Below, in pieces: positions 22,564 to 51,488 of a stretch of DNA of 64,000 bases. The stretch comes from a virus. The stretch lies in the IMG/VR virus record IMGVR_UViG_3300031746_002125, positions 8,450-72,449 of that record. One strand, written 5' to 3'. The notes under the pieces were generated by a model. It was not told the origin of the DNA and did no database searches. It was given only the letters and a program-made list of their open reading frames with translations. The position numbers and the translations under genes were made by a program. Within the stretch, counting starts at the first letter, position 1. Every line of letters starts with the position of its first letter.

Positions 22564-22571
22564 GAAATAAA

Positions 22572-23189: not shown

Positions 23190-23218
23190 TTAAGTGGAAC
23201 ATATTAATTCAATCAGTT

Positions 23219-24175: not shown

Positions 24176-24178
24176 CTG

Positions 24179-25499: not shown

Positions 25500-25500
25500 T

Positions 25501-25818: not shown

Positions 25819-25837
25819 TAGGGATTAGTGATGATAT

Positions 25838-27037: not shown

Positions 27038-27045
27038 TATAAACC

Positions 27046-27453: not shown

Positions 27454-27470
27454 AAAAATATCCTAATCCA

Positions 27471-28001
27471 TTAAATATGACCTGTATATTTATTATTTTT
27501 TATATCGGAGACTATTCTTTGAGAAATACTATATAGTCTTCCAATTTCTTTTTGGGTCAATAAACGTTCTTTTAATAATTTTGTGATCTCTAAAAATTTT
27601 ATTCTATTTATTTTTGCCCATTTGCATTTTGATCCAAGACGACTTGGAGGAAGTTTAAATGTCCCATGACCCTTGCTATCTTGCGAATTTTCTTTTTGTG
27701 TTCCCCACCGCAAATTGTTCAGTTTATTATTATTTGGATTACCGTCCAAGTGTCTACAAACAGCACCAATAAATGGTTTTGGTCCAACAAAAGTTGCGAG
27801 AACCAACTTGTGAATTCTAAAAGTTTTTGATATACTATTTTTAGAAAGACTAAGATATAAATATCCGTTTTTGTCTTCTGTTGGTTTTAAAATTCTTTCA
27901 TTATCACACTTTACACTTATTAATCTTTTAATTAACCCAAGATTAGAAGCTTGGTATAATCCAATATAATCTGGAATATCTTTCCATACTTCCTTGATCA
28001 C
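27471..28001 (-). CDS. NUMOD4-HNH endonuclease
   Basis: EVWKDIPDYIGLYQASN; CRHLDGNPNNNKLNNLRWGT. Confidence 0.9.
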   Translation of the reverse strand: MIKEVWKDIPDYIGLYQASNLGLIKRLISVKCDNERILKPTEDKNGYLYLSLSKNSISKTFRIHKLVLATFVGPKPFIGAVCRHLDGNPNNNKLNNLRWGTQKENSQDSKGHGTFKLPPSRLGSKCKWAKINRIKFLEITKLLKERLLTQKEIGRLYSISQRIVSDIKNNKYTGHI

Positions 28002-28103
28002 CTTATTCTATCCACCAATCTTTTTGTGTTTATTGTCAATTACACCAAAAACAAAAATTTTATAAAATAAACACCAGCCATACCAAAATATCATAATCTT
28101 CTC

Positions 28104-28505
28104 CTAATCCTCTATTCCAAAAATTTCTTTAACATTTTTCAATGTTTCTTCATAATTTTCGGGGGTGGGATTTTCTGGAACCCTAAATCCTTTGTCGTCT
28201 ATAAAAATATCTGCATTAGGTTTTCCATTTTCAAACCACACAGTATCATAAATAAGATTATTCGTATTTAACCAATCCTTTACCATGTTTGCTAATAAAA
28301 ACGGCGCAGTATTTTTGGAAACCACACTTGGTGAACAACGACAACTATGTATAATTATATCCCCAAATTTATGTAGCTCTTCAAGAAATTCTTTGGCTCC
28401 TGGTAGTGGGTCGCCAAACTGGTAAATGTCTTTCCATTGGTCGTATGTGGCAATAGTTTTATCTAGGTCTACTGCAATTACTAACCTTCTATTATATTTA
28501 CGCAT
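28104..28505 (-). CDS. HAD-superfamily phosphatase
   Basis: IAVDLDKTIA and GKPNADIFIDDK. Confidence 0.8.
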   Translation of the reverse strand: MRKYNRRLVIAVDLDKTIATYDQWKDIYQFGDPLPGAKEFLEELHKFGDIIIHSCRCSPSVVSKNTAPFLLANMVKDWLNTNNLIYDTVWFENGKPNADIFIDDKGFRVPENPTPENYEETLKNVKEIFGIED

Positions 28506-29724
28506 TAACCGTTTCTTTTACTATTTCACCGTCGCTGATAATAACCTGACACTCTTTGCCCTTGCCGACTCGTTCTATCCAGACCTGCGCATCCATTTTC
28601 GAGGCCATCTTGGAAACCATCGCCAGATTCTTCTCGTCAAGCAAAGATCCGTCTCGGATTAGAAGGATTTTCAATTTAGGATTCATGACCAAACCCATCG
28701 CAACCGAAACTTTAATCCTTTCACCCTGAGATATTTGATCGAACGGTATCCCATTAAACGTCACGGCCTCTTCGTCAAAAGCCAATCCCTTTATTGGGAA
28801 ATTAGCCTTTTCCAACATCTGTTGTTTAGTAGCGTCTATATTTATCAGAGCAAGAGATGCCGCTTCCGATTTTCCTCTTAGTTCCTGTAGAGCTATTTCT
28901 AAAAGCTTTTTAGCATCGTTAGCCCTTATCGACTTGTTAACTTCTTCGGCTGAATTAATTTGAGACTGTATATTAGATACATCTATCTTTTGGAAATCTT
29001 TTATGGTCGTTTCATCTTTTATCATATAGGTTTCTATCTTGGTTTTTTCTCCTGTTATTTGTTTAATTTGTTCATCTAGTTTTGCGATCCTTAGTTTATT
29101 ATGTTCCAAAGATCTTTTTGCATCATCTAATTTTTGATTTTCCGCAAGAGCAGACATTAATTTATTAGAAAGCGCCACAACAGACACTTCTTTATCTGGA
29201 ACATCCTTGCAATAAGAAATACTTTCATATTGTGCCTTGAGTTCTTTGCCCCTTCTATTAATATCTGTTCTGGAATCAAACGCCTCTTTGCGGCTCTTGT
29301 TCAATTCTGTAAAATCAAGTCCAACCAACTTTTTAAGAGTTTCAATCCTTTTCTTGTCATCCATTCTAAAAAATTCAGACGGATCGAAAGATAGATTCCC
29401 CACTATCTTGTCAAGCATAGCTTGTGGAGTAGGGAACGTAGCCCCTTCCTTACTCTTGACCACGAGACTGGTTCCATTTTTTGTAAATGTTCTTATTACC
29501 TGTATATCACCAAGGTCAAGAACAATCCTGGCCTTTTCTTGTCCATTCCTTATTGGTTGACCAGGAATATGCTTTGAACCACCAAGGGCGTATTCGATAG
29601 AATCGAGAATGCTTGACTTGCCATTCCCGTTATCTCCCCCTATCACGACCATGTTACCATCGGGCTTGATTTCAATAGCCTTAAGACATTTTATATTTTC
29701 TGCTTCTAACGATACGATTTTCAT
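28498..29724 (-). CDS. Rad50/SbcC-like SMC ATPase
   Basis: GDNGNGKSSILD Walker A, coiled coil, SQGE signature, LLIRDGSLLD; likely start MKIVSL. Confidence 0.8.
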   Translation of the reverse strand: MKIVSLEAENIKCLKAIEIKPDGNMVVIGGDNGNGKSSILDSIEYALGGSKHIPGQPIRNGQEKARIVLDLGDIQVIRTFTKNGTSLVVKSKEGATFPTPQAMLDKIVGNLSFDPSEFFRMDDKKRIETLKKLVGLDFTELNKSRKEAFDSRTDINRRGKELKAQYESISYCKDVPDKEVSVVALSNKLMSALAENQKLDDAKRSLEHNKLRIAKLDEQIKQITGEKTKIETYMIKDETTIKDFQKIDVSNIQSQINSAEEVNKSIRANDAKKLLEIALQELRGKSEAASLALINIDATKQQMLEKANFPIKGLAFDEEAVTFNGIPFDQISQGERIKVSVAMGLVMNPKLKILLIRDGSLLDEKNLAMVSKMASKMDAQVWIERVGKGKECQVIISDGEIVKETVNA

Positions 29725-30992
29725 TGTTCTACACCAATTCTTTCTCAACCGTTTCCATTAAATCTTTTGTAATTTCTGCTCTTTTGTTCATATCCCAGGT
29801 TTCTTTATTAATTTGTTTATTTTCATAAAAAACTTTATCAATTTGAATATTATTGATTATCATTGTTCTACCCACGTTTATCAGGGCGTCTTCTAGCGAA
29901 TCATTTGAACCACCTATTCTATAGATTGGAGGATCGTAATTTTTACCGGCTTCAAAATCATCTGTCCACCAATAATAACTATTTTCTCTTTTGTCTTCTT
30001 TAAAAATATATACATTCATTCCTTGTATTCCTTTATACGGATTTCCCTATTTTCTTAATACAAGATTCATTAAATTCTTCTTGAGGTTCTTCGTCTAGAA
30101 ATTCAAAGACTTTGGCTTTATTTGGTCGTTTAAAACGAGATTTTAGAATTTTTAAATAATTTCTTTTTAAATAAAGATAAACATATTTTTTATAAAGATA
30201 GATTAAAATATTAGATAAAATATAAATTGTATTAAATATACAAAGTATTTCAATTAACATTACTATTACCCTTTAATTTTTCTTGAGTGGTCCAACGCCC
30301 GCATCATATGGAGACTTGCCGTGATCAATATATTCGTCGCCCTTCTTTTGTTCCTGTACCATCGCATAATCTATTGCTTCTCGAACCGTAGCAAAAGTTG
30401 GTTCCATTCTCGGTCCACCACTAGTTTCAAGCAATCTCCACCCTCTTCCGGTAACAGACCATCTAAAATTACATCTTCCGGTATAACTTTTCTTGGTATT
30501 TTGGGCTTCGAGCCATTCCAGTCTTTGGTGGTCATTTTCAAGCATAAGATCATAACTATTTCTTGGATCTAAAGTATCATCACCCATTACTTCATTCTCC
30601 TATCATCTTTATCTGCAAACAACACATGGTCACAGTTATCTAATTTTTCTTTTTTGTCATTTTTATCATTGATTATATTTTCCGGCCAACTAAAATGACA
30701 TCTCAAACATTCTCTGCGAAGATGTTCTTTCAACACAGGATCTCCATCCTCCTTATATTCTCTAAGATAATCTGATGAAAATCGCACCTTTTCCATATGA
30801 TAAACTTTAACTTCTTCGTGCCCACACTTTGGACACTTAATATTTGGATTAAAATCTTTCATGCCCAAGTATCCTTCCCGCATCGTTTACAATTTTTGCG
30901 CCAAGGCTTTTGTACTTCTCCAATACCATTAGAAGCAAGACACGTTAGATATCTAATTGTCCATTTGTGGCCTAAAACAAGGCACCAAAATT

Positions 30993-31283
30993 TCATCCAA
31001 CATCCCCATTTTCTTTAATTTTTTGATCTTCGTAAGGGGCGATTAATTTTCTGGAAATTTCTGTCTTGCAACATTCGAGTGCCCCAATAATCGAATTAAA
31101 CCGAGCATAAGATTTTTCTCCTCCGATATTTGTGTTCGTTAATCTTTTCGCTATCTTAAAAATTATATAATTTAATTTGCCACAAAGCACATCATTGCCA
31201 CGATATTCATCCAATAGTCGTAATGTCAATTCATCTATCAATGGATCTAATTCTTTTCTTGCAGACTTTAATATATAAGGCAT
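30993..31283 (-). CDS. Conserved phage protein (DUF6899-like)
   Basis: MPYI..GKLNY..GALECCKTE..PYEDQKIKENGDV. Confidence 0.65.
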   Translation of the reverse strand: MPYILKSARKELDPLIDELTLRLLDEYRGNDVLCGKLNYIIFKIAKRLTNTNIGGEKSYARFNSIIGALECCKTEISRKLIAPYEDQKIKENGDVG

Positions 31284-31794
31284 CTATTTCCCCAAGATAA
31301 ACGATTTAAATACTACAAAAAGATCTACAAACCACATCCCTAGTTTTCCAAACGGCCCCCTAGTACATTTGTCACAAAAGTAGAATTCACGAAGAGAAAG
31401 ATTGGTTGCTTGAATAGGCTCGTTACATATTCCACATTTAAATACATCTTTTGTTACTGTTCTATTTTTTCTTTTCTTCGGTTTTGGTGGTGGAAACGGT
31501 CTATCTGGATTAACCTTCAACCAACCGTCCTCTGTCGCCGATTTCTTTCGTTTTTGTGAGATTTTCTTTTTAGCCATTGCTAACTTCCACCTCCTTAGTA
31601 ACTAGAGCAAGATCGCCGACCGGAAAATATTCAGGGCGATTTCTTTGCGGCCTACCCTTTCCTAGACTAAGAGAAACAGAAGAACCATCTTCTGATAGAC
31701 TCTTAATTCTACCCGCTTTACCAACTACACCAGAACATACGTCACACCGAACAACTCGAACAACTTCACCCACTTTAAAACCCATAAATTTCTC

Positions 31795-32433
31795 CTAAAC
31801 AACACTCTTGTATATCTTCTTATTTTTGACATTAGAAATTGTAGTCTCTGAAACACCAAATTGTTTTCCTATTTCTTTTAAAGTTAATTTTCCTTCTTCT
31901 GTTAATTTTCTAATTTCTCTTATTTGGTCATCTTTTAGTTTTGATAAATAGTGTTTTGATCCCATTTGAAATGTTCCATGATTTATTGCGTCTCGACAAT
32001 TTTCTTTTCCTGTTCCTAATTTTAAATTACATAATCTATTATCTGTCCTAACTCCATTCAAATGTCTACATTCCAGTCCTGGAAAATATAAATTACCGAA
32101 AGCCTCTAAAACCAATTTATGAATTTTAAAATATTTTGCCTTTCCATTTTTACACAAACTAATTCTTAGGTATCCATGAGATTCTTTTCTTGGTTTCAAA
32201 ATTTTTTCTTGATTTAAATATTTTTGTGGATCTTTTAATACTCTTCTAATGCTTGTTCTATTAATTTTTGTTTGTCTAGATATTTCAGATTGCGACAAAT
32301 TATTATTGTTTAATAATAAGATATTATTTATTTGATCGTCTGTAAATTTTTTAACAAGTCTCTTTATTCTACCAAGATCAGAAACTTGATATAATCCTTC
32401 ATACCCAACCACATCTTTCCAAATCTCTATCAT
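31795..32433 (-). CDS. NUMOD4-HNH endonuclease with internal HTH insertion
   Basis: EIWKDVVGYEGLYQVSD; extra LSQSEISRQ HTH; ECRHLNGVRTDNRL. Confidence 0.88.
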   Translation of the reverse strand: MIEIWKDVVGYEGLYQVSDLGRIKRLVKKFTDDQINNILLLNNNNLSQSEISRQTKINRTSIRRVLKDPQKYLNQEKILKPRKESHGYLRISLCKNGKAKYFKIHKLVLEAFGNLYFPGLECRHLNGVRTDNRLCNLKLGTGKENCRDAINHGTFQMGSKHYLSKLKDDQIREIRKLTEEGKLTLKEIGKQFGVSETTISNVKNKKIYKSVV

Positions 32434-33077
32434 CTCAATATTATACGAAAAACTACCACCCTTTTATTTTTTTAATTTCTTTTATTATTGAAATCAAATG
32501 ATCGCAAACTATTGATTTTTTACTAGCTTCAACACCATACCCAACAATATTTCCAGGAATCTTGCTTATTGGCAAGTTAGCCTTACACACAAAATTGAGT
32601 TCTTCAAGTGAAAGTTGTACTTGTTCTAATAGATCATTAAGAATCTCTGGTTGATGGTTTTGTGTTTTATAAATTGGAGCTTTAGCTTTCGTCATAAATT
32701 AATCTCACTTTCTTATGTTAATAACAGACTTTTCTTGGGGGTTAAAATATGTCGTTCGCCCAAAGCCTTTTCAGAAATTTGTTTCCACGCATCGTTGTCG
32801 GTATCAACCACACCAAAAGATTTAATATGTTTTGTATTAATAAATTCTTTTTGACAAACCAAATAAAGGGGATTCATATCTTTTAATTGAGCAGCCGCCA
32901 AACCATCTTTACCACCTTCTCCTTTATGGGGGAATAAAACTAAAGATCTTTCTACGGGAATTATAGCATCGACAGTTATTAATTCTCTAAAATCATCCGG
33001 AGATTTATCAATCTCAAAAAATTTACTATCACCATCTTTGAAATCTACCCTATACCAACTCATATTTTTCCTTTCTA

Positions 33078-33464
33078 TTATTTCACTATTTCCAAACACT
33101 GAACCACATTATGACCAGACAAATCTTTTATATCACTCGTGTCGGGATCTAAAATCTTTTTTTTCTTTGCGTCATATACGATTGCATGAACATTACATTT
33201 TGGTCCTAAATTAAGATCTATTTTCGCAACAATTAAAATAGAATTATTTTTTAAATCTTTAAGCCTATTAAATTTTATAAATCTTGATTTAATATTAAAT
33301 TCGTCATCTAAAAATCTTTTTATTGAATGTGATTCGTTTCTAAAATTAGGTGAACCTATTGTAAAACGAGCCATTTCCTTTACGTGTTCATAACATGTTC
33401 CGCCGACCATAGCCACACAAGCAACACTACACCCGTCTCCGTCCAATTGTTTAACTAAATTCAT
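33078..33464 (-). CDS. Peptidase C39-like protein
   Basis: Q..GCSVACVAM..HAIVYD..DP. Confidence 0.65.
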   Translation of the reverse strand: MNLVKQLDGDGCSVACVAMVGGTCYEHVKEMARFTIGSPNFRNESHSIKRFLDDEFNIKSRFIKFNRLKDLKNNSILIVAKIDLNLGPKCNVHAIVYDAKKKKILDPDTSDIKDLSGHNVVQCLEIVK

Positions 33465-34913
33465 AGAAAAATCTCTCTATCTTAAACAAACATATCTTAT
33501 CAACAAACCGACATATTCGAACTTTTTTAATTTTATCTTGCCGAAACAATAATTTATACGCTGTCCAGAAAGCCATAAAAAGAAAATAATGTTCAGATAA
33601 AATTACGTAATCCCGTAACGGTTCTCCATAAGAACAACCTTCTATTGGATATTGTACATTATATTTTTTCATTTATGCATCCCTAATTTTTTGAGTATCC
33701 ATATCTTCCCATATATCTGGATATTGCCAATCTATTATTTGGTTCTGCCAATCACGAGCAAATTTAGCAGCCAACGCATAATGTTGTCCATCGTCTAAAT
33801 ATATGTCTCCTGATTTGGGATCTGTTTCAAAACCACACAGAGCAACAGTTTTATCATTAACTTTACGAATCCTTATACTCATTTATTTATTGTCCATTAA
33901 AAATCTATGTACACCAACGGCACGGTCTAGATTAGTATTGTGTTCATCTAAAATTCCACATATTTGTCCAGCGGTTGGAATTTGTTTTTCAATAAAATCA
34001 GCAGCTTCATTCATTAATTTTTGAGTAGCTGTTTGATAAAATTCTAAATCTCCACCCTGAAAAGTAACATTAGACCAACGACGAAGCCTTTGGGACAAAG
34101 CTAACTTTTGTCCCTTTTTATTATCAAAGTCATCCTCTTTTACGTTAGCTATAAATATTCCTTTATCCACGACCAGTACACCCTGGACAACAACAAGTAG
34201 GTTTTTCTGCTTGCATTTCTTCTATTAATTCTTTTAAAGACGATCTTACTTTTCCATTATAGGATTTGTCTGCTACTGATTCTAATACTTTAATAATACC
34301 ATATTCTCCGATTATTGTTGACAATAATCTATCACACAAATCATCCATTCATCTTCTCCATAAATTGTTGTGCAAATTCTTCCGATGCGGTGTCCGCATC
34401 AAATTTATCAAATGGTTTTTCGAAAAAATTGTTGTCTAATAAATAGCTTGTTAAATATTCTTTTAATTGTGTCTGCAATTCCTCTTGTGAAAAGAAGGTC
34501 ATAACATCTGTCTTGGCTATAGTTATACGTAAACAATCCTTATAAATATGAAATTCTGGATGACTTTCTGGTAATTCGAAGAACATTATTCCACACGGAG
34601 TAGAACAATTTTTACAGCCGGGATATTTTTGAACAATATACCATCTTTTTTCAGTTCCAATATTTGGAGCGCGTAATTTAAAAAATTCACCACTTAATAA
34701 ACAACCACATTCACACATTATAATACCTCGGACGGACGAAAAATCCCGGTGTTTCCTGGGGTTATCATCTTAAACCAACGCCCAGGGTAAATCCTATTAT
34801 CTATATCCACATCTCCAACTATACAACCACAATTTTTGCACCATCTTACTGTATAGTCTTCGTCATAGCTCTGACGAAAACGAGCTATAACTATTAAATC
34901 ATGATTTTTTGAA

Positions 34914-35312
34914 TTACACATTTTCAACTCCACTTTTCATTACCCTGTAGGTATCTTCGTCTTTGTGGGTAGTTGAAACTTCTAAAAACACAACATTTAA
35001 ACAATTTGGATTATAAAAACTATGAGCCTGACAAGGAAGTATCGTCACCGACTCTCCCTTAATTAAAATATCCGTTACTTTAGTTCCATCTTTCTCGAAC
35101 CTATCGAGATGAAGTTCGCCACTTAAAATAAAGAATGTTTCTTGTTTATCTCTGTGCCATTGAAGTGACAACCTACTTTCTGGAACAAGTGTCATTATCT
35201 TGGCACAATATTTATCATTGTTAACGATGATTTCTTCTGTTCCCCAGTTCTTTTTAACAAGAATAGTTTTTTCAATTTTGTTCATTTCTACTCGATTCAA
35301 GAACCGCGACAT
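34914..35312 (-). CDS. Cupin (mannose-6-phosphate isomerase-like)
   Basis: KNWGTE, SLQWHRDKQETF, HSF, LEVST. Confidence 0.8.
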   Translation of the reverse strand: MSRFLNRVEMNKIEKTILVKKNWGTEEIIVNNDKYCAKIMTLVPESRLSLQWHRDKQETFFILSGELHLDRFEKDGTKVTDILIKGESVTILPCQAHSFYNPNCLNVVFLEVSTTHKDEDTYRVMKSGVENV

Positions 35313-35523
35313 CGGGTTCCATTAAAACCATAGAGCCACTTATAAAATCGAACAACAATCCGTCGCGTAGTCTTACTGCATAAATTGTCGAACGAGACTT
35401 TAAAACATCATAAAACGAAGTATTTATTCTGATATACAATTCGTTATTAAGCCAAAAGCATTCTCCTCGCTTGATACTACTTAATAATAATTCATTATGA
35501 TTTTTAGGAACATAAACTTTCAT
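35272..35523 (-). CDS. Hypothetical protein, paralog of 52756..53004
   Basis: GECFWLNNELYIR..VRLRDG vs GQCFLHGDEVYMR..VRLLDG. Confidence 0.55.
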   Translation of the reverse strand: MKVYVPKNHNELLLSSIKRGECFWLNNELYIRINTSFYDVLKSRSTIYAVRLRDGLLFDFISGSMVLMEPDVAVLESSRNEQN

Positions 35524-37539
35524 TTAAAATATTCTCCAAATCTTTTAATTCTTGGCTATAGTTTGGGCCAGTATAAATAAAACCGTGAGAGGCGGCAATA
35601 CTCCATATAGTCGCGTATCGTGGATCATTTTCAACCAATTTTAATTTATCAACCAAAGCCTTCGCCGCATCTTTTAATTTCATGCTATACTCTGTTATCA
35701 TAACACCTCTTTTCATTCGTCTTACATCGTTCCAGGCCGCATCGGAAGGTACTTCTACGGGAGGAGTAACGTGTTGAAAATAAAATTTAGTTTCTTTTGG
35801 AGGAACAACGCCAACAGTATTTTTGGGACCACAATTTGGACGTGGTTTAACATTCTCTGTTTGCATTTTTTGCTCGGCTTTATCCATAGCTTTTCCAAGA
35901 GTCTCTCTAAATGAACATCGTACACAATGTTTCGAAGACCACGCTTTCCCACATTTGGAGCATGGAAGATTATCTTCGACTGGAATTCTTAAAGCCCAAT
36001 ATCCATTTGGCCGACACACCCATTCACCAAAATCAATTGATTTCCCTTTACTATCTTCTACTTCTAAAAATCGTCCACTTTGATGAGAGGGGGGACCATC
36101 GAAAACAATATCTATATAATCACTCATTTTTATCTCTCTAAAAAATCAATCCATATTGCCACCAACAAAGCCAATGGCCCCCAAAACAAAAATTCAAACC
36201 AAGAAATATATCTACCTTTTGGAAAACATTTTATTTGTATTAAACCACCACAAACCCCACATAAAATCCATGTAATAAGAAACAAACAAAAATAGATAAA
36301 CATTTATTCTCCCCTAATAACTCCTTGGTCCCATATCAACCACGCCTCGTCCAGAGTTTTCGCTTTTACAAACACACTAATAACCTCACAACAACCACCA
36401 AGGTTTTCACAAATGAGAAACCAACCATCTCTACAATTAATATTCTTATTTGAAAACTCTACTTTTTCAAGCCTAAATTGACTTCCACAAGGGCACGGTC
36501 GATGTAACATTTTAGGTTTTTTATATTCTACGGTTTTACCTATTGACCCAAATATCTTCCTGTTATTATTAAAAACAGCCAAAATTGCATCAGCGGCTTT
36601 GATAGGCCAAATAGTTCCTTCTTTTGGGGGTATGACAGAATTTATAATTTTTATCAATCTTTCTCTATTTGGCAATTTAACAGATTTTATAATATCGTCA
36701 GCAAACTCGTTTAATAAATAGTCTTCTATATCAGAAACAACACGAGGAAGTTCTTTTAATTGAACTTTTCTCCATGTTCGTTGAATACTCTTCACTATTG
36801 CGTCACGCATTTTTCTTTTCCCTTTTTATGAATTCTTTTATATCTGTTATACCAAACCATCTCCCACCCTTTTCGTCAGAAATAAATGGCATACGATATA
36901 AATCCTTCGTGAACAATGGACAAATAATAAATTTAATTTGAGTATCTGGAATATTTTTAATCATTTCTTCAGCGATTAAATTATTAGAATCGTTTGGAAT
37001 ACAATACATAGTAATTTTTTTCATTATTTCCTCTTCTTTCCACTTGTTTCCCTGACCATTAAAACGAGCCGATCTTTAATTAATTCTTTTACATCCTCTT
37101 CTGTTGCATCAATCAATAGTCTACAATGGGTAAAATTTAATTCCACTAAATCTGGGGAAATATTATATTTTACAAGAAGTTCTTGTGCATATTTTTCGAA
37201 TTTAATTTTATTTAAATACTTAAAACTTATTTCTACCATTTATTTACTCACAACTAAACTAAATTAGCCCGACACAAAAGTATTTTCATATTAAATCTTT
37301 ATAAATAAAATTTACAACGAATCTGTCGTTTTTGCTTCTACACATAGCTAATGCGGCGTCCTTTTCGTATCCAAATGTTTTCTGGCCAACATTTCCCACG
37401 GAGTAATAGACTCTGCAAGGGCGTAAATCTTTTGTAGCTCTTTTACTCTTTCCTTTATTTTTTCTTCGGCTTTCATAATCAATTATACGATTAATTGGGT
37501 GATTATTTTTATATTTATTGAAATAGTAGATATCGGACC

Positions 37540-38073
37540 TTAATTTATTGAAACGTGTTTCCATCTTTCTCTGTTTTTGATTTTTGAAATTGTTTGGGGT
37601 ACTACTTTAAAAATATTACTAATTTCTTTTTGGGTTAAATATCCGTCTTCTAACAATCTATTAATTACTCTAATTTTCCAATCATTTAATTTTGCTCCGG
37701 GATTTTCTTCTCCAATTTTATAAAGCCAAATAGGGTCTTGAATACATCTCCCGTGCTTAACCATGTCCTTTTGATTGTTCTTATGGGTATCACATCTTAG
37801 ATTTTCAATTAAATTATTTTTAGGGTTTCCATCGTTGTGACATATTTCCATTCCTTGCGGGCAAGGATCGAAAAAGGATTCAAACATCAATCTATGTAGA
37901 AGAAAATTTCTTCCCCTATCATTATTATATAATCTGACATATAAATACCCGCCGCTTCCTATATATGGTTTAATAATTCTTTTTCTTGGGCTTTTCTTCC
38001 CTGCTATTCCTTTTACAAGAGAAGTCTCTGAAATTTGATATAGTCCTTCGTAGCCTGGAATATCTTTCCACAT
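37540..38073 (-). CDS. NUMOD4-HNH endonuclease (leaderless)
   Basis: WKDIPGYEGLYQIS; ICHNDGNPKNN; TATAAT 5 nt upstream of ATG. Confidence 0.9.
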   Translation of the reverse strand: MWKDIPGYEGLYQISETSLVKGIAGKKSPRKRIIKPYIGSGGYLYVRLYNNDRGRNFLLHRLMFESFFDPCPQGMEICHNDGNPKNNLIENLRCDTHKNNQKDMVKHGRCIQDPIWLYKIGEENPGAKLNDWKIRVINRLLEDGYLTQKEISNIFKVVPQTISKIKNRERWKHVSIN

Positions 38074-38196
38074 ATCTAATTATACGAATAAACGAGTAAT
38101 TATTTTGAGAAAAGAGGGTGAATAGTGTGGTTCAAAGAATCTTGATTTATACTTTGAAGACGATTTGATATCCGGCTTAGTCTTCGCCCCCAGCAG

Positions 38197-38447
38197 TTTT
38201 CGGACCATAGGCTTCGAATTATCGGACGGCATATAACTACCACACCCTTATCGGACCTAATTGGCCAGACGCCAATTATAGGACCGCCCATTATCGGACG
38301 AGCATATAGAGAAGGTTATCGGGCTTATACTTATAGGACGTGGACGCGGGGAGGGAAAAAGATTATGGGAGCACGGGATATAGGACTATACATTATGGGA
38401 CGATGTGCCGCTCGTGCCGATGCCAAAAACATGCTCGGTTATCGGAC
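38197..38447 (+). repeat. Iteron-like cluster of 11 copies of TTATNGGAC
   Basis: Copies start at 38197, 38219, 38248, 38276, 38291, 38316, 38331, 38363, 38378, 38393 and 38439; 15-bp spacing recurs four times. Confidence 0.85.
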
Positions 38448-38469
38448 GATAAAAATTTTTTATTTTCGT

Positions 38470-38497
38470 TTGCTTACCTGCGATTCTATTCTACAAT
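38470..38497 (+). promoter_or_regulatory. Sigma70-type early promoter
   Basis: TTGCTT-N16-TACAAT preceded by an AT tract. Confidence 0.6.
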
Positions 38498-38530
38498 TAG
38501 GTTGGCAATAGGGCCGACAAGGAGAAGAAA

Positions 38531-38677
38531 ATGGTACTAGGAATAACAATCGGAACGGGCGCGGTGGTGATGATGGTGATTATGATGATTAAGACCAGCT
38601 TAGAAAATGCTGGCAACACCTACGGGCGGCGGAGCGTTTGCGGACGTTCGGCTCGGTGGAACAGGAGGGTGCGATAA
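38531..38677 (+). CDS. Small early membrane peptide (48 aa)
   Basis: GGAG RBS; MVLGITIGTGAVVMMVIMM; stop overlaps the next ATG. Confidence 0.55.
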   Translation: MVLGITIGTGAVVMMVIMMIKTSLENAGNTYGRRSVCGRSARWNRRVR

Positions 38678-38754
38678 TGTTTACAATGATCGGACTAGGA
38701 TTTCTCATGGTGGTTATCGGAGCGGTGAAGGTGTGGTGGGAATTATCGGAATAA
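38677..38754 (+). CDS. Small early membrane peptide (25 aa)
   Basis: AGGAGG RBS; MFTMIGLGFLMVVIGAVKVWWELSE. Confidence 0.55.
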   Translation: MFTMIGLGFLMVVIGAVKVWWELSE

Positions 38755-38765
38755 AGGAGAGCTTT

Positions 38766-38921
38766 ATGTGGACGCTAGTTATCTGGACATCGCCGAACGA
38801 CAGCGCATCCTACGATTATCGGACGAGAATGGAAGCGTTGGCTATCGGACGTAATTGCATCGACGCCTATGCAGTTGAATTATACGGACCTGACGGCGAG
38901 TATGAAGGATTTTCGGACTAG
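38766..38921 (+). CDS. Small early protein (51 aa)
   Basis: AAGGAG RBS; MWTLVIWTSPND... Confidence 0.6.
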   Translation: MWTLVIWTSPNDSASYDYRTRMEALAIGRNCIDAYAVELYGPDGEYEGFSD

Positions 38922-38929
38922 GAGGTGCT

Positions 38930-39172
38930 GTGATGATGAAAGCAACACTTGAAGTTTTCTGGCCAAGCGACCCAACATTTTCGGACGCTGACAAGGTTTC
39001 GCGGTACGATAATCTTTGGGACGATTGTGTGATGATAGACGCGAGAATAGCAGCCCTTTGTGGTGGACACGCCATCGCGACACTATCGGACGGCTACCGG
39101 GTCGAATACATCTCGGACGATTGCGAGCCGACTGGTTATCGGACTAAAGGCGTACCATGTGAAACGGTCTGA
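38930..39172 (+). CDS. Small early protein
   Basis: AGGAGG RBS; followed by a terminator. Confidence 0.6.
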   Translation: MMMKATLEVFWPSDPTFSDADKVSRYDNLWDDCVMIDARIAALCGGHAIATLSDGYRVEYISDDCEPTGYRTKGVPCETV

Positions 39173-39189
39173 TTATCGGACGAAGGACC

Positions 39190-39214
39190 GGGCCGAATTA
39201 TCGGCCCTTCTTTT
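39190..39214 (+). terminator. Rho-independent terminator
   Basis: GGGCCGA-ATTA-TCGGCCC-TTCTTTT. Confidence 0.75.
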
Positions 39215-39228
39215 GCGCTGATCGGTTT

Positions 39229-39395
39229 GGTCCTATAAAAATCACTGCTTGTAAAATCGTAACTTAACTGCGAATTATGGGACCAGGCATATATTACTTC
39301 GTTTATGTGCGTTTCCTGCGGGATGTTATCGAATCATGCAAATAATATCGAAGAATTCCTATAATAATTGAGACATTATCATTAAAAATCAACAT
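39229..39395 (+). repeat. Intergenic degenerate repeat R1
   Basis: Blocks GGTCCTATAA, AAATCGTAA, AACTGC, TTATRGGAC, ATATATTACTTCG, AATAATA, CCTATAATAA shared with R2 and R3. Confidence 0.8.
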
Positions 39396-39424
39396 TTTAT
39401 TGGCCTATCCTCGTATAATATATT

Positions 39425-39940
39425 ATGGGAACTATCCGGGAAATAAAGGTTACAGGACGTAATTATGAATTATCGGTCCTTGTCGATGAAGAAGATTATC
39501 AGACGTTAAGGTTATGGGAATATGGTTTGTCCAGAATTATAGGACTTGATACAACCTACATACAGACTTATAAAAAGGGCAAAAGGGGTTATCTCCATCG
39601 TCTTATTATGGGGGTTTCGGACGCGACAACGTCCATTTTCGTAGATCATATTGACCATAATGGGCTTAATAATTCTAGGACCAACCTACGTATTACCAAT
39701 AATAAGGGTAATCAGCGCAATTCGCGCAAACGATTATCGACAAAACGAACAAGCTCCTATAAAGGAGTTTATTTTTCTCACAATAATAAGATGAACCCCT
39801 GGTTAGCATCCATTCATCTATCGGACAGTAGAACACATCTGGGATATTATAGGACCGAAATAGAAGCGGCTCACGCCTATAATAAGGCCGCTATCGAGCA
39901 TTTCGGCGACATGGCCAACCCGAACATTCTCGGACCATAA
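39425..39940 (+). CDS. HNH-AP2 endonuclease (leaderless, motif-overprinted)
   Basis: YLHRLIM..VDHIDHNGLNNSRTNLR; AP2 YKGV..HLGYY..EAAHAYNKAA. Confidence 0.88.
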   Translation: MGTIREIKVTGRNYELSVLVDEEDYQTLRLWEYGLSRIIGLDTTYIQTYKKGKRGYLHRLIMGVSDATTSIFVDHIDHNGLNNSRTNLRITNNKGNQRNSRKRLSTKRTSSYKGVYFSHNNKMNPWLASIHLSDSRTHLGYYRTEIEAAHAYNKAAIEHFGDMANPNILGP

Positions 39941-39968
39941 AATTTTTCAGATTTTTATTATTTGGACC

Positions 39969-39997
39969 TTGACTTTTGTATGGTTCCCGCCTATACT
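39969..39997 (+). promoter_or_regulatory. Sigma70 promoter
   Basis: TTGACT-N17-TATACT. Confidence 0.8.
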
Positions 39998-40052
39998 CCT
40001 ACAGTAGTACGGGACAACGAAATGATGTTTTTTTCGGACGGGGGAAAGGGCG

Positions 40053-40358
40053 ATGAAAAGGCCGCTATTATCAGACGACATGGTGGATATGAAGTTAGCT
40101 AGTCTGGAAAAATTGCAGTATCGCTTGGAATTAACGGGGCCGATAATGTTCTGGAAAGCAGAAGTGATCGGACCATTCGGCTCGGAGTTTTTCGGACGGT
40201 CCAGTAACGGGCCAACGACCGATAAAGCTATCGAGCGACTTAAATTGCAGCTTGAACGAATCGGGTTTATCGGACTACTGATTGAAAGCCCGATAATCGG
40301 AAAAGATTATTCGGACGACGATCTGTTATCGGACGAAGAAGTCCCTGACGAGTTATAG
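40053..40358 (+). CDS. Early hypothetical protein
   Basis: 101 aa downstream of a promoter with a purine-rich RBS. Confidence 0.6.
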   Translation: MKRPLLSDDMVDMKLASLEKLQYRLELTGPIMFWKAEVIGPFGSEFFGRSSNGPTTDKAIERLKLQLERIGFIGLLIESPIIGKDYSDDDLLSDEEVPDEL

Positions 40359-40377
40359 GACGATAAGGGGGTGTAAA

Positions 40378-40578
40378 GTGTTGCTGAAAAAAAGAACGTA
40401 TTTCTTGACGAATGTTATCGGCGAATCTTGTTTGGTCCGAGTATTCGTTGCGACGGCAAACGCAAACATCGTCTTTATGGGACGCCAGAATTTCCTTCCG
40501 ATAAGACGTGCCTTTTCCGAGCAAGGGGAAACGACATTAGCGGACGATGACGAGGGCGAAGAGTGGAAAGACCGATAA
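40378..40578 (+). CDS. Early hypothetical protein
   Basis: 66 aa; AAGGGGGT RBS. Confidence 0.5.
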   Translation: MLLKKRTYFLTNVIGESCLVRVFVATANANIVFMGRQNFLPIRRAFSEQGETTLADDDEGEEWKDR

Positions 40579-40624
40579 ACTAGCGGGACAAAGAAGTTAT
40601 AGGACTAGGGAACCGATCGGCCTT

Positions 40625-40820
40625 GGTCCTATAATTTGCGCCTACGGCACAGTTATAGGACTCCCTTATAATGTTAAAATCGTAATTAAACTGCTTTTTA
40701 TAGGACGTGGCATATATTACTTCGCCTGCGAGCGTTTCCTTCGGGACATTCTAGGATCATGCCAATAATAACGAAACTGCCCATAATAATAAAGACATGC
40801 CGATTGAAAAACGATATATT
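40625..40820 (+). repeat. Intergenic degenerate repeat R2
   Basis: Same conserved blocks as R1 and R3, with a short insertion after GGTCCTATAA. Confidence 0.8.
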
Positions 40821-40851
40821 ATCAGACTAAAAGATTTTCTTGTCGGGCGAC

Positions 40852-40880
40852 TTGACTTCGGCGGTCGGCTTGCATATAAT
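40852..40880 (+). promoter_or_regulatory. Sigma70 promoter
   Basis: TTGACT-N17-TATAAT. Confidence 0.85.
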
Positions 40881-40953
40881 TCAATATGACCGAACGCGAT
40901 AGCCTATAGTGTTATGGGCGAGCGTAAAGTCGATCCATTATAGGAGCTCCAAT

Positions 40954-41286
40954 ATGTCGGCAACCGCAGTAGTTTCAAGCCCAGTAACCACCAGCAAAGT
41001 TCACGAAAAGGAATTTTTGACGACCGCGCAGGACTACGCGCGTGACCGCAAGGGCATAGATTGGCTATCGTCCCAACCCAACCCAGACGAGGCTATCGAC
41101 CGCGTTATGAAGGTTATTGGCCGCCTTCAGAATATGGTTGCCAACGGTTCGGACTATACTCCAGCCGCGCAGCTCGGCTTCGGGTCCGCTAACGCCTCAA
41201 CCATCGCGTCCGGTATTCTCGGCGCAGGCTTGACGGGTTCGCAGATTCGCAAGCTGTTCGCAACCGTAGGCAAGCCGAAGGCATAA
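40954..41286 (+). CDS. Monocistronic early protein (110 aa) with GC-rich codon usage
   Basis: TAGGAG RBS before MSATAVVSS; own promoter and terminator. Confidence 0.7.
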   Translation: MSATAVVSSPVTTSKVHEKEFLTTAQDYARDRKGIDWLSSQPNPDEAIDRVMKVIGRLQNMVANGSDYTPAAQLGFGSANASTIASGILGAGLTGSQIRKLFATVGKPKA

Positions 41287-41320
41287 TTTTCGGACCTCGA
41301 CGACTTATCGAGGAACGAAT

Positions 41321-41359
41321 TATCGGACGGGAGACGCGGGTTTCTCGTCCGATATTTTT
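41321..41359 (+). terminator. Rho-independent terminator
   Basis: TATCGGACGGGAGAC..GTTTCTCGTCCGATA-TTTTT. Confidence 0.8.
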
Positions 41360-41373
41360 GCGCGGATTTATAT

Positions 41374-41547
41374 GGTCCTATAATTTTCACTGCATGGTAA
41401 ATCGTAAAATAACTGCAATTATAGGACGTGGATTATATTAACTTCGTTTGTGCAAGATTTTCTAAGACATTCTCGGATAATACCAATAATATCAACTATG
41501 CCTATAATAAAGAGAACATATCGATTGAATAAATAGATATTATAGGA
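41374..41547 (+). repeat. Intergenic degenerate repeat R3
   Basis: Same conserved blocks as R1 and R2. Confidence 0.8.
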
Positions 41548-41559
41548 ATCCCATAATTT

Positions 41560-41680
41560 TTATTGGGTTCGGACGTATAATTATAGGACCGAAGAAGAAG
41601 CGGCAACAGCCTATAATAAAGCAGCTATCGAATTATTCGGACCTATTGCCTTCCTCAATATATTACCGGACCAAAAATAA
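41560..41680 (+). pseudogene. Internally deleted HNH-AP2 remnant
   Basis: ATTGG-N9-TATAAT joined directly to YRTEEEAATAYNKAAIELFG..., homologous to the C-terminus of 39425..39940. Confidence 0.75.
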
Positions 41681-41706
41681 TTTTTTTGATTTCTGGTTAT
41701 AAGACC

Positions 41707-41735
41707 TTGACATTTCGGTTCTGCAAGCATATAAT
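41707..41735 (+). promoter_or_regulatory. Sigma70 promoter (perfect consensus)
   Basis: TTGACA-N17-TATAAT. Confidence 0.88.
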
Positions 41736-41942
41736 ATAATAGTATTTTCGGACAAAAGAAGGTTGATCTGGACGAGTTTTCGGACGACGGGAAGATGGGC
41801 GATATGCGCACTTTTTCTTCTTATAGGACTAATTATTAGGACTACGATTTTATCGGAGGTTCCATATAATTTCTGTCTTGGCATCGTATTATTCAAAGAC
41901 TTATCGGGTGGTGCCAATAATCATTTTATTTTACCCAAAGGC

Positions 41943-41971
41943 TTGACTATCGTTGACTACGAGCATATAAT
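41943..41971 (+). promoter_or_regulatory. Sigma70 promoter driving the ncRNA candidate
   Basis: TTGACT-N17-TATAAT; predicted TSS near 41978. Confidence 0.85.
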
Positions 41972-41977
41972 TAGATA

Positions 41978-50957: not shown

Positions 50958-51488
50958 TTGTCGAAAGGTAAAAAAATGGAAATCGTAGTTTCTTCTCGCC
51001 AAGCCGTCTGCGGAGTAATACAAAAAATCCAAAAAGACAAGCCAGACATCAAAGTGATTTGTGTGTCGATAACCGATCCGAAGTCAGAACCAGTTAATCT
51101 TCCTTTATTGGATCTCGACATACTCCGACTTCAATTCCATGATTTGGACCAAACATACCCAATTTCTGGTCCCGCAATTGTTTTATTTAATACTGATATG
51201 GCTCACGAGATCAAGGGTTTTATGGAGGAGAGAATTGACTGGGTAGAAAATTCCAGTTTCGGGGTTGATGATTTAATTATTGTAGTACATTGTGAAGCTG
51301 GAATTTCTAGAAGCGCGGGTGTCGCGGGAGCTTTGGCAAAACATTTCTTTGGGAATGACGATATTTTCTTCAGAAGTCCATATTTACCCAATAGATTGAC
51401 GTATAGTATATTATTAAATCTTTTGAGTGGAAAGGAAAATCAAATTCCAAATGTAATTATATGCAATGAGGATTCTAATGTTTTTTAA
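50958..51488 (+). CDS. Protein tyrosine/dual-specificity phosphatase-like
   Basis: VHCEAGISRS (HCxxGxxR); LQFHD. Confidence 0.85.
   Translation: MSKGKKMEIVVSSRQAVCGVIQKIQKDKPDIKVICVSITDPKSEPVNLPLLDLDILRLQFHDLDQTYPISGPAIVLFNTDMAHEIKGFMEERIDWVENSSFGVDDLIIVVHCEAGISRSAGVAGALAKHFFGNDDIFFRSPYLPNRLTYSILLNLLSGKENQIPNVIICNEDSNVF

What the first reader, a model, noticed from the sequence alone, without database searches (positions are those of the whole stretch)
39425..39940. Natural control: an HNH-AP2 gene inside the island carries the motif, its paralog outside does not
Seen: 39425..39940 and 44884..45408 are close paralogs (IREIKVTGRNYELSVLVDEEDYQTLRLWEY vs IREMKVYGRDYEVTTFVDEEDYWRLRLWEY). The island copy has motif-like sites at diverged positions (ELS=TTATCGGTC, YQT=TTATCAGAC, IIG=TTATAGGAC, LSD=CTATCGGAC, YRT=TTATAGGAC). 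Inference: selection for motif density in this location is strong enough to change amino acids in a mobile gene, so the motif is positional and functional rather than a by-product of protein sequence.
Basis: partly seen in the sequence, partly recalled or inferred. Interest (0 to 1): 0.8.

Follow-up and report, generated by a model that had tools for sequence, protein, structure and literature searches.

The report
Phage endonuclease gene shaped by motif island
A mobile endonuclease gene lying inside a phage's dense patch of one repeated nine-letter DNA word carries that word nine times while its relatives outside the patch carry almost none, which shows that the word is a real position-bound signal of still unknown function.

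Summary
Gene A (39425-39940, +) has 9 sense-strand matches of at least 8 bits to a motif matrix built from island sites outside the gene. That is 17 per kb, the same as the island (about 16 per kb). Paralogs B (43902-44465, +) and C (44884-45408, -) have 1 each, and the rest of the window has 0.2-0.5 per kb.

Synonymous shuffling of A gives a mean of 2.0 matches and never reached 9 in 5000 tries.

The pattern repeats in other genomes. Five homologs from metagenome contigs with motif-bearing flanks carry 7-10 sites. The other 26 of the 31 loci I examined have 0-1 sites and poor flanks.

A and C are 58% identical, not close. A's "motif" residues (LS, YxT, IG, SRT, YRT) are the consensus of a subfamily of about 70 protein clusters. 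C is nested among motif-rich relatives and looks like the copy that lost them.

The island itself occurs once per genome in a group of uncultured large sediment phages. It carries 40-110 co-oriented copies of TTATCGGAC, also where no HNH-AP2 gene is present. What reads the word remains unknown.

The parts
39425..39940 (+). Gene A: intact HNH-AP2 (homing-endonuclease type) gene, 171 aa, inside the island
   Evidence: ORF. Weak Pfam HNH_3 match, E 0.0038, below the cut-off. Holds all 13 invariant columns of the 71-row family alignment. 9 sense motif hits.
39450..39460 (+). Motif site TTACAGGACGT (V-T-G-R), 11.0 bits
   Evidence: Also present at the same column in L130.
39470..39480 (+). Motif site TTATCGGTCCT (E-L-S-V), 9.3 bits
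   Evidence: A site at the same column in L130, L133 and L151.
39496..39506 (+). Motif site TTATCAGACGT (D-Y-Q-T), 9.7 bits
   Evidence: A site at the same column in L130, L131, L133 and L134.
39537..39547 (+). Motif site TTATAGGACTT (I-I-G-L), 12.7 bits
   Evidence: A site at the same column in L131 and L133.
39614..39624 (+). Motif site GTTTCGGACGC (V-S-D-A), 10.0 bits; seen only in A among the copies compared
39673..39683 (+). Motif site TTCTAGGACCA (S-R-T-N), 11.6 bits
   Evidence: A site at the same column in L131, L133, L134 and L151.
39818..39828 (+). Motif site CTATCGGACAG (L-S-D-S), 9.8 bits
   Evidence: A site at the same column in L130, L131 and L134.
39847..39857 (+). Motif site TTATAGGACCG (Y-Y-R-T), 14.2 bits, in the AP2 domain
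   Evidence: A site at this column in all six island copies, with the Arg codon AGG or CGG; C and L132 keep TTTTCGGAC here.
39927..39937 (+). Motif site TTCTCGGACCA (I-L-G-P), 13.8 bits, the last codons
   Evidence: A site at the same column in L130, L131, L134 and L151.
38202..41850 (+). The motif island: about 59 plus-strand copies of TTWTMGGAC(G), in coding and non-coding DNA alike
   Evidence: 21 forward against 6 reverse exact TTATMGGAC in the whole 72,449-base record; the reversed control pattern gives 0 and 1.
43902..44465 (+). Paralog B, outside the island, same orientation as A: 1 sense hit
44884..45408 (-). Paralog C, outside the island, opposite strand: 1 sense hit
   Evidence: A 99% identical copy in L132 has motif-free flanks.
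41579..41680 (+). C-terminal remnant (33 aa) of a further HNH-AP2 gene inside the island; still carries motif copies
   Evidence: 82-nt direct repeat with 39846-39927, 73% identical. 21 of 28 residues identical to A residues 142-169.
40053..40358 (+). Island protein X (101 aa), conserved in 7 islands; weakly resembles a double-stranded-RNA-binding domain; 6 motif hits
40954..41286 (+). Island-edge protein Y (110 aa), helical, motif-free; found in 5 islands
39211..39420 (+). First of three related intergenic elements of about 200 nt; the others are at about 40620-40880 and 41356-41540. Each follows a terminator-like hairpin.
41972..42700 (+). ORF-free, strongly folding stretch downstream of a promoter-like site (11 of 12 matches to consensus); hairpins built from motif and anti-motif (CCGATAA)
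   Evidence: (z -4.6). No Rfam family.
37540..38073 (-). NUMOD4-HNH gene on the other strand at the island's upstream border: no motif hit on either strand

Best explanation
What it is. Gene A is an intact member of a large subfamily of phage HNH-AP2 genes of the homing-endonuclease type. Most members of this subfamily appear to live inside a conserved 'TTATCGGAC island'.

The island. It occurs once per genome in a group of uncultured large phages from sediment and groundwater. It spans 2-6.5 kb at the head of a set of small genes driven by sigma-70-like promoters. The word TTWTMGGAC (often followed by G or C) is written on the sense strand with a median gap of about 32-43 nt in the larger islands. 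It crosses genes, leaders and spacers alike.

Effect on resident genes (shown). Whatever lies there is under nucleotide-level selection to carry the word. In the endonuclease gene this fixes codon choice: 9 of about 10 protein-permitted positions are used. It also keeps word-compatible peptides (LS, Y-x-T, IG, SRT, YRT). Relatives that sit outside an island (B, C, L132, L135) do not carry it.

History (shown). The word-bearing state is the subfamily norm and is inherited. It was not made on A's branch. C looks like a secondary loss.

The endonuclease is a passenger (shown). Islands exist without it, and in other samples this cassette is missing or replaced by another allele.

Who reads the word (inferred). 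My best guess, about 0.45, is that it is read on the sense strand, in the early transcripts or during their synthesis, by a phage-encoded factor that marks this class of RNA. About 0.35 goes to a head-to-tail protein array on the DNA.
For: Density and strand:
- Gene A has 9 sense and 0 antisense hits against 1 each in B and C. The island has 59 plus and 14 minus hits.

Codon level:
- A: 9 observed, shuffle mean 2.0, 0 of 5000 shuffles as high.
- L130: 7 against 1.7 (0 of 2000). L131: 7 against 2.5 (5 of 2000). L133: 8 against 2.9 (0). L134: 7 against 2.7 (1). L151: 10 against 2.9 (0).
- Outside copies have 1 site each, not significant: B and C, L132 and L135.

Protein level:
- A permits 10 sites, B 5, C 4. 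The median for 68 database homologs is 10.

Location rule:
- Of 31 metagenome loci examined (of 80 returned), 5 genes have 7-10 hits. Their flanks have 2.5-18.6 plus-strand hits per kb.
- The other 26 genes have 0-1 hits, with flanks at 0-1.7 per kb.
- Four homologs from viral contigs have 0-1 hits.

Shared sites:
- Sites lie at homologous codon columns, with some lineage-specific extras. The Arg codon in YRT is AGG or CGG in all six island copies.

Trees:
- C groups with motif-rich P0028 and P0060 (97/98 support) inside a 20-row clade with 17 motif-rich rows.
- The motif-rich/poor label changes 6 times. None of 200 bootstrap trees needs only 1 change.

Islands elsewhere:
- L045, L067/L070, L075, L093 and L151 have 35-112 co-oriented sites, and genome G+C differs between records.
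- There is one island per genome: 14 of 18 exact sites in G003 and 47 of 50 in G002 lie in one stretch.
- Five island-bearing records, one estimated 96% complete, gave no family match. Two gave only weak matches to the HNH part (E 5e-5 and 1.6e-4).

Mobility:
- A contig of run X4 joins 38919 to 39964, so gene A is absent. X3 and X5 contigs match only from 39876 onward.
- In L130, Y is 99% identical to the window's Y, but the HNH-AP2 gene is only 65% identical.

Sense-strand reading:
- In every island checked, the motif lies on the coding strand of X, Y and HNH-AP2.
- B lies on the same strand but outside the island and lacks the motif.
- The conserved island protein X weakly resembles a double-stranded-RNA-binding domain.
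Against: - No reader of the word was identified. X's model is only medium confidence (pLDDT 65). Its matches to double-stranded-RNA-binding domains are weak (Z about 5, Foldseek E at least 0.1) and tie with HicB-like antitoxin folds. There is no Pfam or PDB sequence match.
- Local RNA folding shows no preference for loops or stems at the motif.
- In the window and four other loci (L045, L151, L070, L093), the first 6-10 copies lie upstream of the first recognisable sigma-70-like promoter. The preferred spacing is 24-27 nt, with further peaks at 33-36 and 48. The 7-mer core is also enriched in reverse orientation inside islands. All three fit DNA binding at least as well as RNA.
- The motif-rich/poor label rests on a threshold I chose (capacity of at least 5 sites at 10 bits). 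The 98-row tree is a quick search. The careful tree uses 40 rows that I picked. The AU test did not finish.
- DNA was available for only six island-resident homologs. For the 68 database proteins, island residence is inferred from capacity alone.
- The joints come from low-depth metagenome contigs laid at 85% likeness.
Confidence: 0.78

Rival explanations
1. DNA-level array. The word is a binding site for a phage-encoded (or host) DNA-binding protein. The protein assembles head to tail along the 2-6 kb region, for example to switch off the strong early promoters, to mark an origin or the first-entering end, or to shield this DNA. The co-orientation comes from the polarity of the protein array, not from transcription.
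For: - Preferred centre-to-centre spacing of 24-27 bp, with peaks at 33-36 and 48, seen in most islands.
- Runs at 23-27 bp steps in G002.
- A first cluster of 6-10 copies upstream of the first sigma-70-like promoter in the window, L045, L151, L070 and L093.
- Reverse copies are also enriched inside islands.
- One island per genome.
- The island starts where transcription diverges and cumulative GC skew is lowest.
- No RNA structural context at the motif.
- From my own reading only: Y has a helix-turn-helix-like stretch.
Against: - A sense-to-antisense ratio of about 4-5 to 1, always matching gene direction, in every island checked. Plain DNA binding does not require this.
- No DNA-binding domain was detected in X or Y. 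Y's model is poor, with pLDDT 53.
Confidence: 0.35
2. By-product of protein sequence. The sites in gene A merely reflect peptides that the HNH-AP2 fold needs (LS, YxT, IG, SRT, YRT).
For: The sites lie at conserved columns, and these residues are the subfamily consensus. YRT lies in the AP2 domain. C keeps FRT with a motif-like site there.
Against: - Synonymous shuffles keep the protein yet give 2.0 sites instead of 9. The same holds in five other island copies.
- 20 more distant HNH-AP2 proteins, B, C, L132 and L135 all lack both the residues and the sites.
- The density in the gene equals that of the non-coding island DNA.
Confidence: 0.04
3. The word belongs to the endonuclease. TTATCGGAC is the binding or cutting site of the AP2 domain of these HNH-AP2 enzymes, so gene and sites travel together. 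The island would then be a by-product of endonuclease activity.
For: - AP2 domains bind short G/C-containing words. I read passages of bioRxiv 10.64898/2026.02.23.707548, which state this and note that AP2 domains occur alongside HNH domains in homing endonucleases.
- The anti-motif CCGAT resembles the plant DRE core CCGAC (recalled, not tested).
- The subfamily and the islands co-occur.
Against: - Five island-bearing viral records, one estimated 96% complete, have no member of the family, only two weak HNH-part matches.
- The gene is absent or swapped in other samples while the island persists.
- B and C have AP2 domains but sit in motif-free DNA.
Confidence: 0.07
4. Shared foreign origin or mutational process. 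The island, including gene A, came from a genome in which this word is common everywhere, or a local mutational or gene-conversion process writes it without selection.
For: The island is richer in G+C (0.42-0.47) than most of the window (about 0.30-0.37). The region is mosaic and recombines between its repeats.
Against: - The higher G+C extends to 49 kb and includes B and C, which lack the word.
- The word is confined to one stretch per genome in records whose G+C ranges from 33% to about 50%.
- The islands share no detectable nucleotide similarity apart from the word.
- Sites persist at the same codon columns across 35-58% protein divergence.
Confidence: 0.05

Closest known systems
Phage HNH-AP2 homing endonuclease genes
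   Same: - HNH core (DHxDxNxxNN...N) followed by a C-terminal AP2-like domain.
- Many copies per phage genome, beside other endonuclease families.
- Presence/absence and allele replacement between samples.
- The HNH+AP2 architecture is mentioned in passages I read of bioRxiv 10.64898/2026.02.23.707548. I saw only the listing and abstract of PMC10448857, on nuclease genes at boundaries of genetic exchange between phages.
   Different: This subfamily carries 7-10 copies of a foreign nucleotide word at fixed codon positions, and it appears tied to one kind of genomic neighbourhood. I know of no report of a homing endonuclease gene shaped in this way. The string search found only chance or primer hits.
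DNA uptake sequences and Chi/KOPS-type polar words that constrain coding sequence (recalled, not from a call)
   Same: A short strand-specific word, selected at the DNA level, lies inside genes and biases codons and peptides.
   Different: Those words are spread over whole chromosomes at roughly one per several kb. Here 40-110 copies are packed into one stretch of 2-6.5 kb, and the rest of the genome has almost none.
Arrays of protein-binding repeats: plasmid and phage centromeres or iterons, and the 24-bp periodic phi29 p6 complex (recalled)
   Same: Co-oriented repeats with a preferred spacing of about 24-27 bp and a single locus per genome.
   Different: Those arrays are short, regular and non-coding. 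This one is irregular, ten times longer, and runs through at least five genes.
RNA-level word systems: T4 RegB cutting GGAG in early mRNAs, and CsrB/RsmZ sponge RNAs with many GGA sites (recalled)
   Same: A short sense-strand word enriched in one temporal class of transcripts. The core here also contains GGA.
   Different: - The word here is 9-11 nt long.
- It is not presented in hairpin loops.
- No RegB- or CsrA-like protein was found.
- No Rfam family matches.

Membership tests
HNH-AP2 homing endonuclease | HNH nuclease motif | tested here: met
   - Pfam HNH_3: A has E 0.0038 (17.3 bits, below the cut-off of 24.8). B has 26.0 bits, above the cut-off.
- A holds all invariant columns (H58, D74, H75, N83, N87 and others) of the 71-row alignment.
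HNH-AP2 homing endonuclease | AP2-type DNA-binding domain at the C-terminus | tested here: inconclusive
   - Pfam AP2 matches only below its cut-off: B 23.4 bits and C 20.9 bits against 33.3. A has no match.
- A aligns through this region with B, C and homologs that carry a precomputed PF00847 label.
HNH-AP2 homing endonuclease | Mobility (presence/absence at a fixed site) | tested here: met
   - A contig of X4 joins 38919 to 39964 without the gene. X3 and X5 carry other alleles upstream of 39876 (low depth, 85% likeness).
- L130 has a 65% identical allele at the same position, beside a 99% identical Y.
HNH-AP2 homing endonuclease | Site-specific DNA cleavage and homing | not testable with these tools
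   Needs enzyme assays or crosses.
Double-stranded-RNA-binding domain (protein X) | alpha-beta-beta-beta-alpha fold with its RNA-contact motifs | tested here: inconclusive
   - The model has pLDDT 65 with helix-strand order H-E-E-E-H.
- Foldseek E is at least 0.1.
- VIA Z is 4.5-5.4 to many such domains, and equally to HicB-like folds.
- No Pfam match and no PDB sequence match.
Genome-wide polar words (Chi, KOPS, uptake sequences) | Spread over the whole genome | tested here: not met
   Most exact sites lie in one stretch per record. In the window's own record, 25 of 27 lie between record positions 46,668 and 50,714. In G003 it is 14 of 18, and in G002 47 of 50.
CRISPR array or plain tandem repeat | Regular repeat-spacer period | tested here: not met
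   The spacing is irregular (median 32-43 nt in the larger islands) and the copies run through genes.
CsrA-type sponge RNA | GGA presented in hairpin loops | tested here: not met
   The mean unpaired probability at the motif core is 0.42-0.48, against an island mean of 0.47-0.50.
Any Rfam family | Covariance-model match | tested here: not met
   Only tRNAs reach the gathering score in the window. In 41400-43100 there is one chance-level match, E = 1.

The most novel reading that the evidence does not exclude
A group of uncultured large sediment phages carries a previously undescribed kind of cis element. It is one kilobase-scale 'word-saturated' region per genome, with 40-110 sense-strand copies of TTATCGGAC laid over the first genes of an early-type module. 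The constraint is strong and lasting enough to have remodelled the codons and peptides of everything living there, including a whole subfamily of selfish endonuclease genes. The word would tag this region or its transcripts for an unknown phage factor. Candidates are the conserved island proteins X and Y.
Probability: 0.55. Interest if true: 0.85.

Novelty: new variant of a known kind. Interest (0 to 1): 0.72.

Why it matters
Mobile endonuclease genes are normally seen as recent, selfish arrivals that owe nothing to their neighbourhood. Here a whole subfamily has been reshaped at codon and amino-acid level by a nucleic-acid signal of the place it lives in. Its relatives elsewhere act as built-in controls.

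This gives unusually clean evidence that the TTATCGGAC island is functional. It also gives a measure of how strong the constraint is: 9 of about 10 possible positions are used.

The island is conserved across phages that share no other nucleotide similarity. It comes with two conserved proteins of unknown family that can be expressed and tested.

If the word marks early transcripts or a stretch of DNA for a phage factor, it would be a new way for phages to label one part of their genome.

Tried and rejected
- Nucleotide search of the island and of 20000-38000 against cultured phages: no match. Protein X against the same collection: no match. The nearest isolates to a conserved ATPase are only about 42% identical.
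- Earlier scan notes for this genome: none.
- blastn of 36000-50000 against the loci fetched up to that point: nothing at E 1e-4.
- Rfam: only tRNAs. Rfam on eight bacterial loci explained none of the arrays.
- Pfam and PHROGs on X and Y: nothing usable. PDB sequence search with a 61-row X profile: two chance-level rows. ESM Atlas for Y: no usable hit. The Y model was too poor to search with (pLDDT 53).
- Literature. The motif strings occur in 402 papers; the 25 listed are primer-like or otherwise unrelated hits. A word search for a comparable phage feature gave nothing relevant. A search on phage T5 first-step transfer failed on a term that was too short and was not repeated.
- Scan of bacterial genomes for three spaced copies: more than 120 loci across many phyla. 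Most are plain tandem repeats that could contain any 9-mer by chance, which is my own estimate. No shared neighbouring gene emerged. It therefore gives no host clue.
- Sequencing runs: 13 sediment metagenome holders, with no RNA holder listed. Only contigs could be laid, so read starts, nicks and expression could not be examined. Only 40 of 245 differing positions were printed, so I could not test whether variants avoid motif positions.
- The AU test that all motif-poor rows form one clade did not finish after 863 s and was dropped. It was replaced by a careful tree on 40 of the 98 rows.
- RNA local folding around the motif: no signal.
Full report
Setting. The window is bases 8450-72449 of a 72,449-base viral contig that CheckV estimates to be 43% complete. 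It has about 33% G+C, four or more tRNA genes, capsid, terminase and tail genes, and about twenty endonuclease-type genes of three families. No cultured phage is close.

The motif and the island. Between about 38202 and 41850 the plus strand is filled with TTATCGGAC and close variants. Exact TATNGGAC occurs 34 times on the plus strand of the window, and 28 of these lie in 38150-42700. The context of 57 plus-strand GGAC sites outside gene A gives T-T-(A/T)-T-(C/A)-G-G-A-C-(G)-(A). GGAC sites elsewhere in the window show no such context. I built an 11-column matrix from 42 of those 57 sites, so gene A played no part in defining the motif.

Checking the observation. At 8 bits or more:
- Gene A (39425-39940): 9 sense hits, no antisense hit.
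- B (43902-44465, same strand): 1 sense, 1 antisense.
- C (44884-45408, opposite strand): 1 on its sense strand, 0 on the other.
- The island as a whole: 59 plus, 14 minus.
- The 59 kb outside: 21 plus, 11 minus.

Two other HNH genes of a different family, one of them at the island's upstream border, have none. The G+C content of A, B and C is 41%, 45% and 38%, so composition is not the cause. The only correction is that the paralogs are not close: 52-58% protein identity and 56-60% nucleotide identity.

Is it more than the protein sequence gives? Permuting synonymous codons within gene A gives a mean of 2.0 hits, with a maximum of 7 in 5000 permutations. Recoding with the codon usage of genes outside the island gives 1.2. 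Protein A allows about 10 non-overlapping sites at 8 bits, and 9 of them are realised. Proteins B and C allow 5 and 4. Both codon choice and amino-acid sequence therefore contribute.

Relatives elsewhere. A word-indexed protein search found 79 proteins at E of 1e-5 or better. One is 97% identical, and about 70 clusters are 49-69% identical, so many are closer to A than B or C are. I aligned 68 of them with A, B and C. I left out the two rows with no listed source, which I took to be the window's own B and C, and the nine most distant rows. A has 10, 8 and 6. B has 5, 3 and 2. C has 4, 2 and 1. A is therefore typical of its subfamily, and B and C are the unusual ones.

DNA of relatives. A scan of metagenome contigs returned 80 loci, of which I scored the first 31. 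Five genes carry 7-10 sense hits: L130, L131, L133 and L134 at 58-65% identity to A, and L151 at 42%. All five have motif-bearing flanks. L130 has 12.3 plus-strand hits per kb, L133 has 13.2, and L151 has 18.6 (112 hits in 6 kb). L131 and L134 have 2.5 and 5.7 plus-strand hits per kb, with similar numbers on the minus strand. The other 26 genes have 0-1 hits, and their flanks have 0-1.7 per kb. These include L132, which is 99% identical to C, and L135. Four further homologs from viral contigs have 0-1 hits. Synonymous permutation repeats the result of gene A in all five island copies, with at most 5 of 2000 permutations reaching the observed count. It is not significant in B, C, L132 and L135. 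The rule 'inside an island means loaded, outside means empty' therefore holds in 6 of 6 and 34 of 34 genes for which I had DNA.

Where the sites lie. In a protein-guided alignment the sites of the six island copies fall largely at the same codon columns: ELS, DY(Q/R)T, IIG, IMGL, N(S/Y)RT, LS(D/G), YYRT and IGP. Each copy also has a few sites of its own. At YRT the Arg codon is AGG or CGG in all six, the two choices that keep the word. The sites are mostly inherited and maintained, with some turnover.

Polarity. In a quick tree of 98 proteins, 20 distant HNH-AP2 proteins form a motif-poor outgroup. The 78-row family contains 66 rows with high capacity and 12 with low capacity. In a careful tree of 40 of these rows (my selection), rooted on five outgroup rows:
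- The family has 100/99 support.
- B groups with P0059 and P0067 (95/90), separate from C.
- C lies in a 97/98-supported group of five rows with the motif-rich P0028 and P0060. This group sits inside a 20-row clade holding 17 motif-rich and 3 motif-poor rows.
- The motif-rich/poor label changes six times. None of 200 bootstrap trees needs only one change, and well-supported branches force at least three.

The simplest reading is that the word-bearing state arose early in the subfamily and that C's lineage lost it after leaving an island. An AU test of the alternative did not finish.

Five other island-bearing viral records, one estimated 96% complete, contain no member of the family. They gave only two weak matches to the HNH part. 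Contigs from other sediment samples show one form that joins 38919 to 39964 and so lacks gene A and the small gene before it. Other forms match the window only from 39876 onward and have a different HNH-AP2 3' end before that point (low depth, so taken with caution). L130 has a 65% identical allele at the same position, next to a Y gene that is 99% identical. A 33-residue remnant of yet another copy lies at 41579-41680.

The island in other phages. A pattern scan of viral contigs found the same co-oriented arrays in L045 (49 hits at 10 bits or more), L067/L070 (51 and 29), L075 (43) and L093 (35), and smaller ones in L112, L025, L066 and L057. The arrays sit in sharply bounded stretches of 0.5-5 kb, in records whose G+C differs. 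L093 is a syntenic relative of the window, with 54-72% protein identity in many genes. The viral-contig loci fetched up to one search showed no nucleotide similarity to the window. Each genome has one island.

Two small proteins are conserved with the island. X (window 40053-40358) is found in seven islands, and Y (40954-41286) in five, at the downstream edge. X belongs to a small family, with 69 representatives in 1.8 billion proteins. Its model (pLDDT 65) has the helix-strand order of a double-stranded-RNA-binding domain, but the structural matches are weak. Y is helical, motif-free and unassigned.

The islands share a layout. A dense first cluster of 6-10 copies comes first, then a sigma-70-like promoter and a small membrane-protein gene, then further short transcription units. 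Preferred spacings between copies are 24-27, 33-36 and 48 nt. The motif always lies on the coding strand of the island genes.

Mechanism. It is shown that the word is selected at the nucleotide level, that it is tied to place, and that it acts on resident genes. What reads it is only inferred. I lean slightly (about 0.45) to a sense-strand reading, in the early transcripts or during their synthesis. The reasons are that the copies follow gene direction in every island, that every short transcription unit carries them, and that B, on the same strand but outside, does not. A polar protein array on DNA is nearly as likely (about 0.35). Points in its favour are the spacing, the cluster upstream of the first recognisable promoter, the enrichment of reverse copies, and the absence of any RNA structural context. 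Neither was tested directly.

Comparison with what is known. The gene is an ordinary member of the HNH-AP2 endonuclease kind. The island resembles polar DNA words, repeat arrays bound by proteins, and word-tagged early mRNAs in single respects, but it fits none of them (see the membership rows). A string search of the paper library for the word returned 402 papers; the 25 listed were chance or primer-like hits.

Verdict. It is wrong about which copy diverged and when. Supplementary files of papers were not consulted.

Noticed in passing
window 41972-42700: An ORF-free stretch of about 700 nt after a promoter-like site (11 of 12 matches to consensus). It folds well below shuffled controls (z -4.6) and is built of hairpins that pair the motif with its complement (CCGATAA occurs 5 times). 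It matches no Rfam family. No clear counterpart was seen downstream of Y in L045, L075 or L067.
   Followed up: partly
window 39211-39420, 40620-40880, 41356-41540: Three related intergenic elements of about 200 nt (mean column identity 67%). Each follows a terminator-like hairpin. Two precede HNH-AP2 sequence (gene A and the remnant). They may be part of the mobile cassette or a small RNA or leader.
   Followed up: partly
whole window, e.g. 654-1169, 18964-19515, 23171-24172, 24706-25206, 26378-27082, 27474-28007, 31798-32463, 37540-38073, 46730-47221, 51457-52125, 55741-56427, 57886-58449, 59081-59626, 60491-61030, 62741-63397: About twenty endonuclease-type ORFs of three families lie in 64 kb, an unusually heavy load of selfish genes.
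   Followed up: no
window 4973-6751 (-): A 592-aa ORF combines a D5-like/HTH part, an HNH endonuclease part and a C-terminal Mom-like DNA-modification domain. It may be a modification gene interrupted by, or fused to, an endonuclease.
   Followed up: no
window 42911-42986, 45481-45553, 48579-48675, 53005-53066: The two tRNA finders disagree. ARAGORN calls tRNA-Met and tRNA-Ile(tat), which Rfam does not list at its gathering score. Rfam lists a 97-nt and a 62-nt tRNA match that ARAGORN does not call.
   Followed up: no
L250 6539-8000 (a Bacillaceae genome contig), also L248, L228, L285 and others: Several Bacillaceae genomes hold arrays of (A/T)TATCGGACA. In L250 the copies are about 21 bp apart with variable spacers, packed in tandem units of about 187 bp that end in a terminator-like hairpin. 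It is the same word as in the phage islands, and I could not explain it. Many other bacterial hits are plain tandem repeats.
   Followed up: partly
L045 about 2050-2110, L151 about 205-270, L070 (reverse strand), each upstream of the first motif copy: A conserved box of about 25 nt, containing AAAAGTTGTAGGTC-like sequence, lies 40-70 nt before the first motif copy in three islands. It may be a start signal of another promoter type.
   Followed up: no
L130 1-2363 compared with window 39425-41286: Same gene order (HNH-AP2, X, Y), but identity to the window is 65%, 68% and 99% respectively. This is a sharp mosaic boundary within 2 kb.
   Followed up: partly
L074 1-500 and L075 (record positions 155,040-158,000 of 160,023): Two independent contigs of about 160 kb end within a few kb of their island, with the motif's sense direction pointing towards the contig end. 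This may hint at a genome end or terminal repeat near the island.
   Followed up: no
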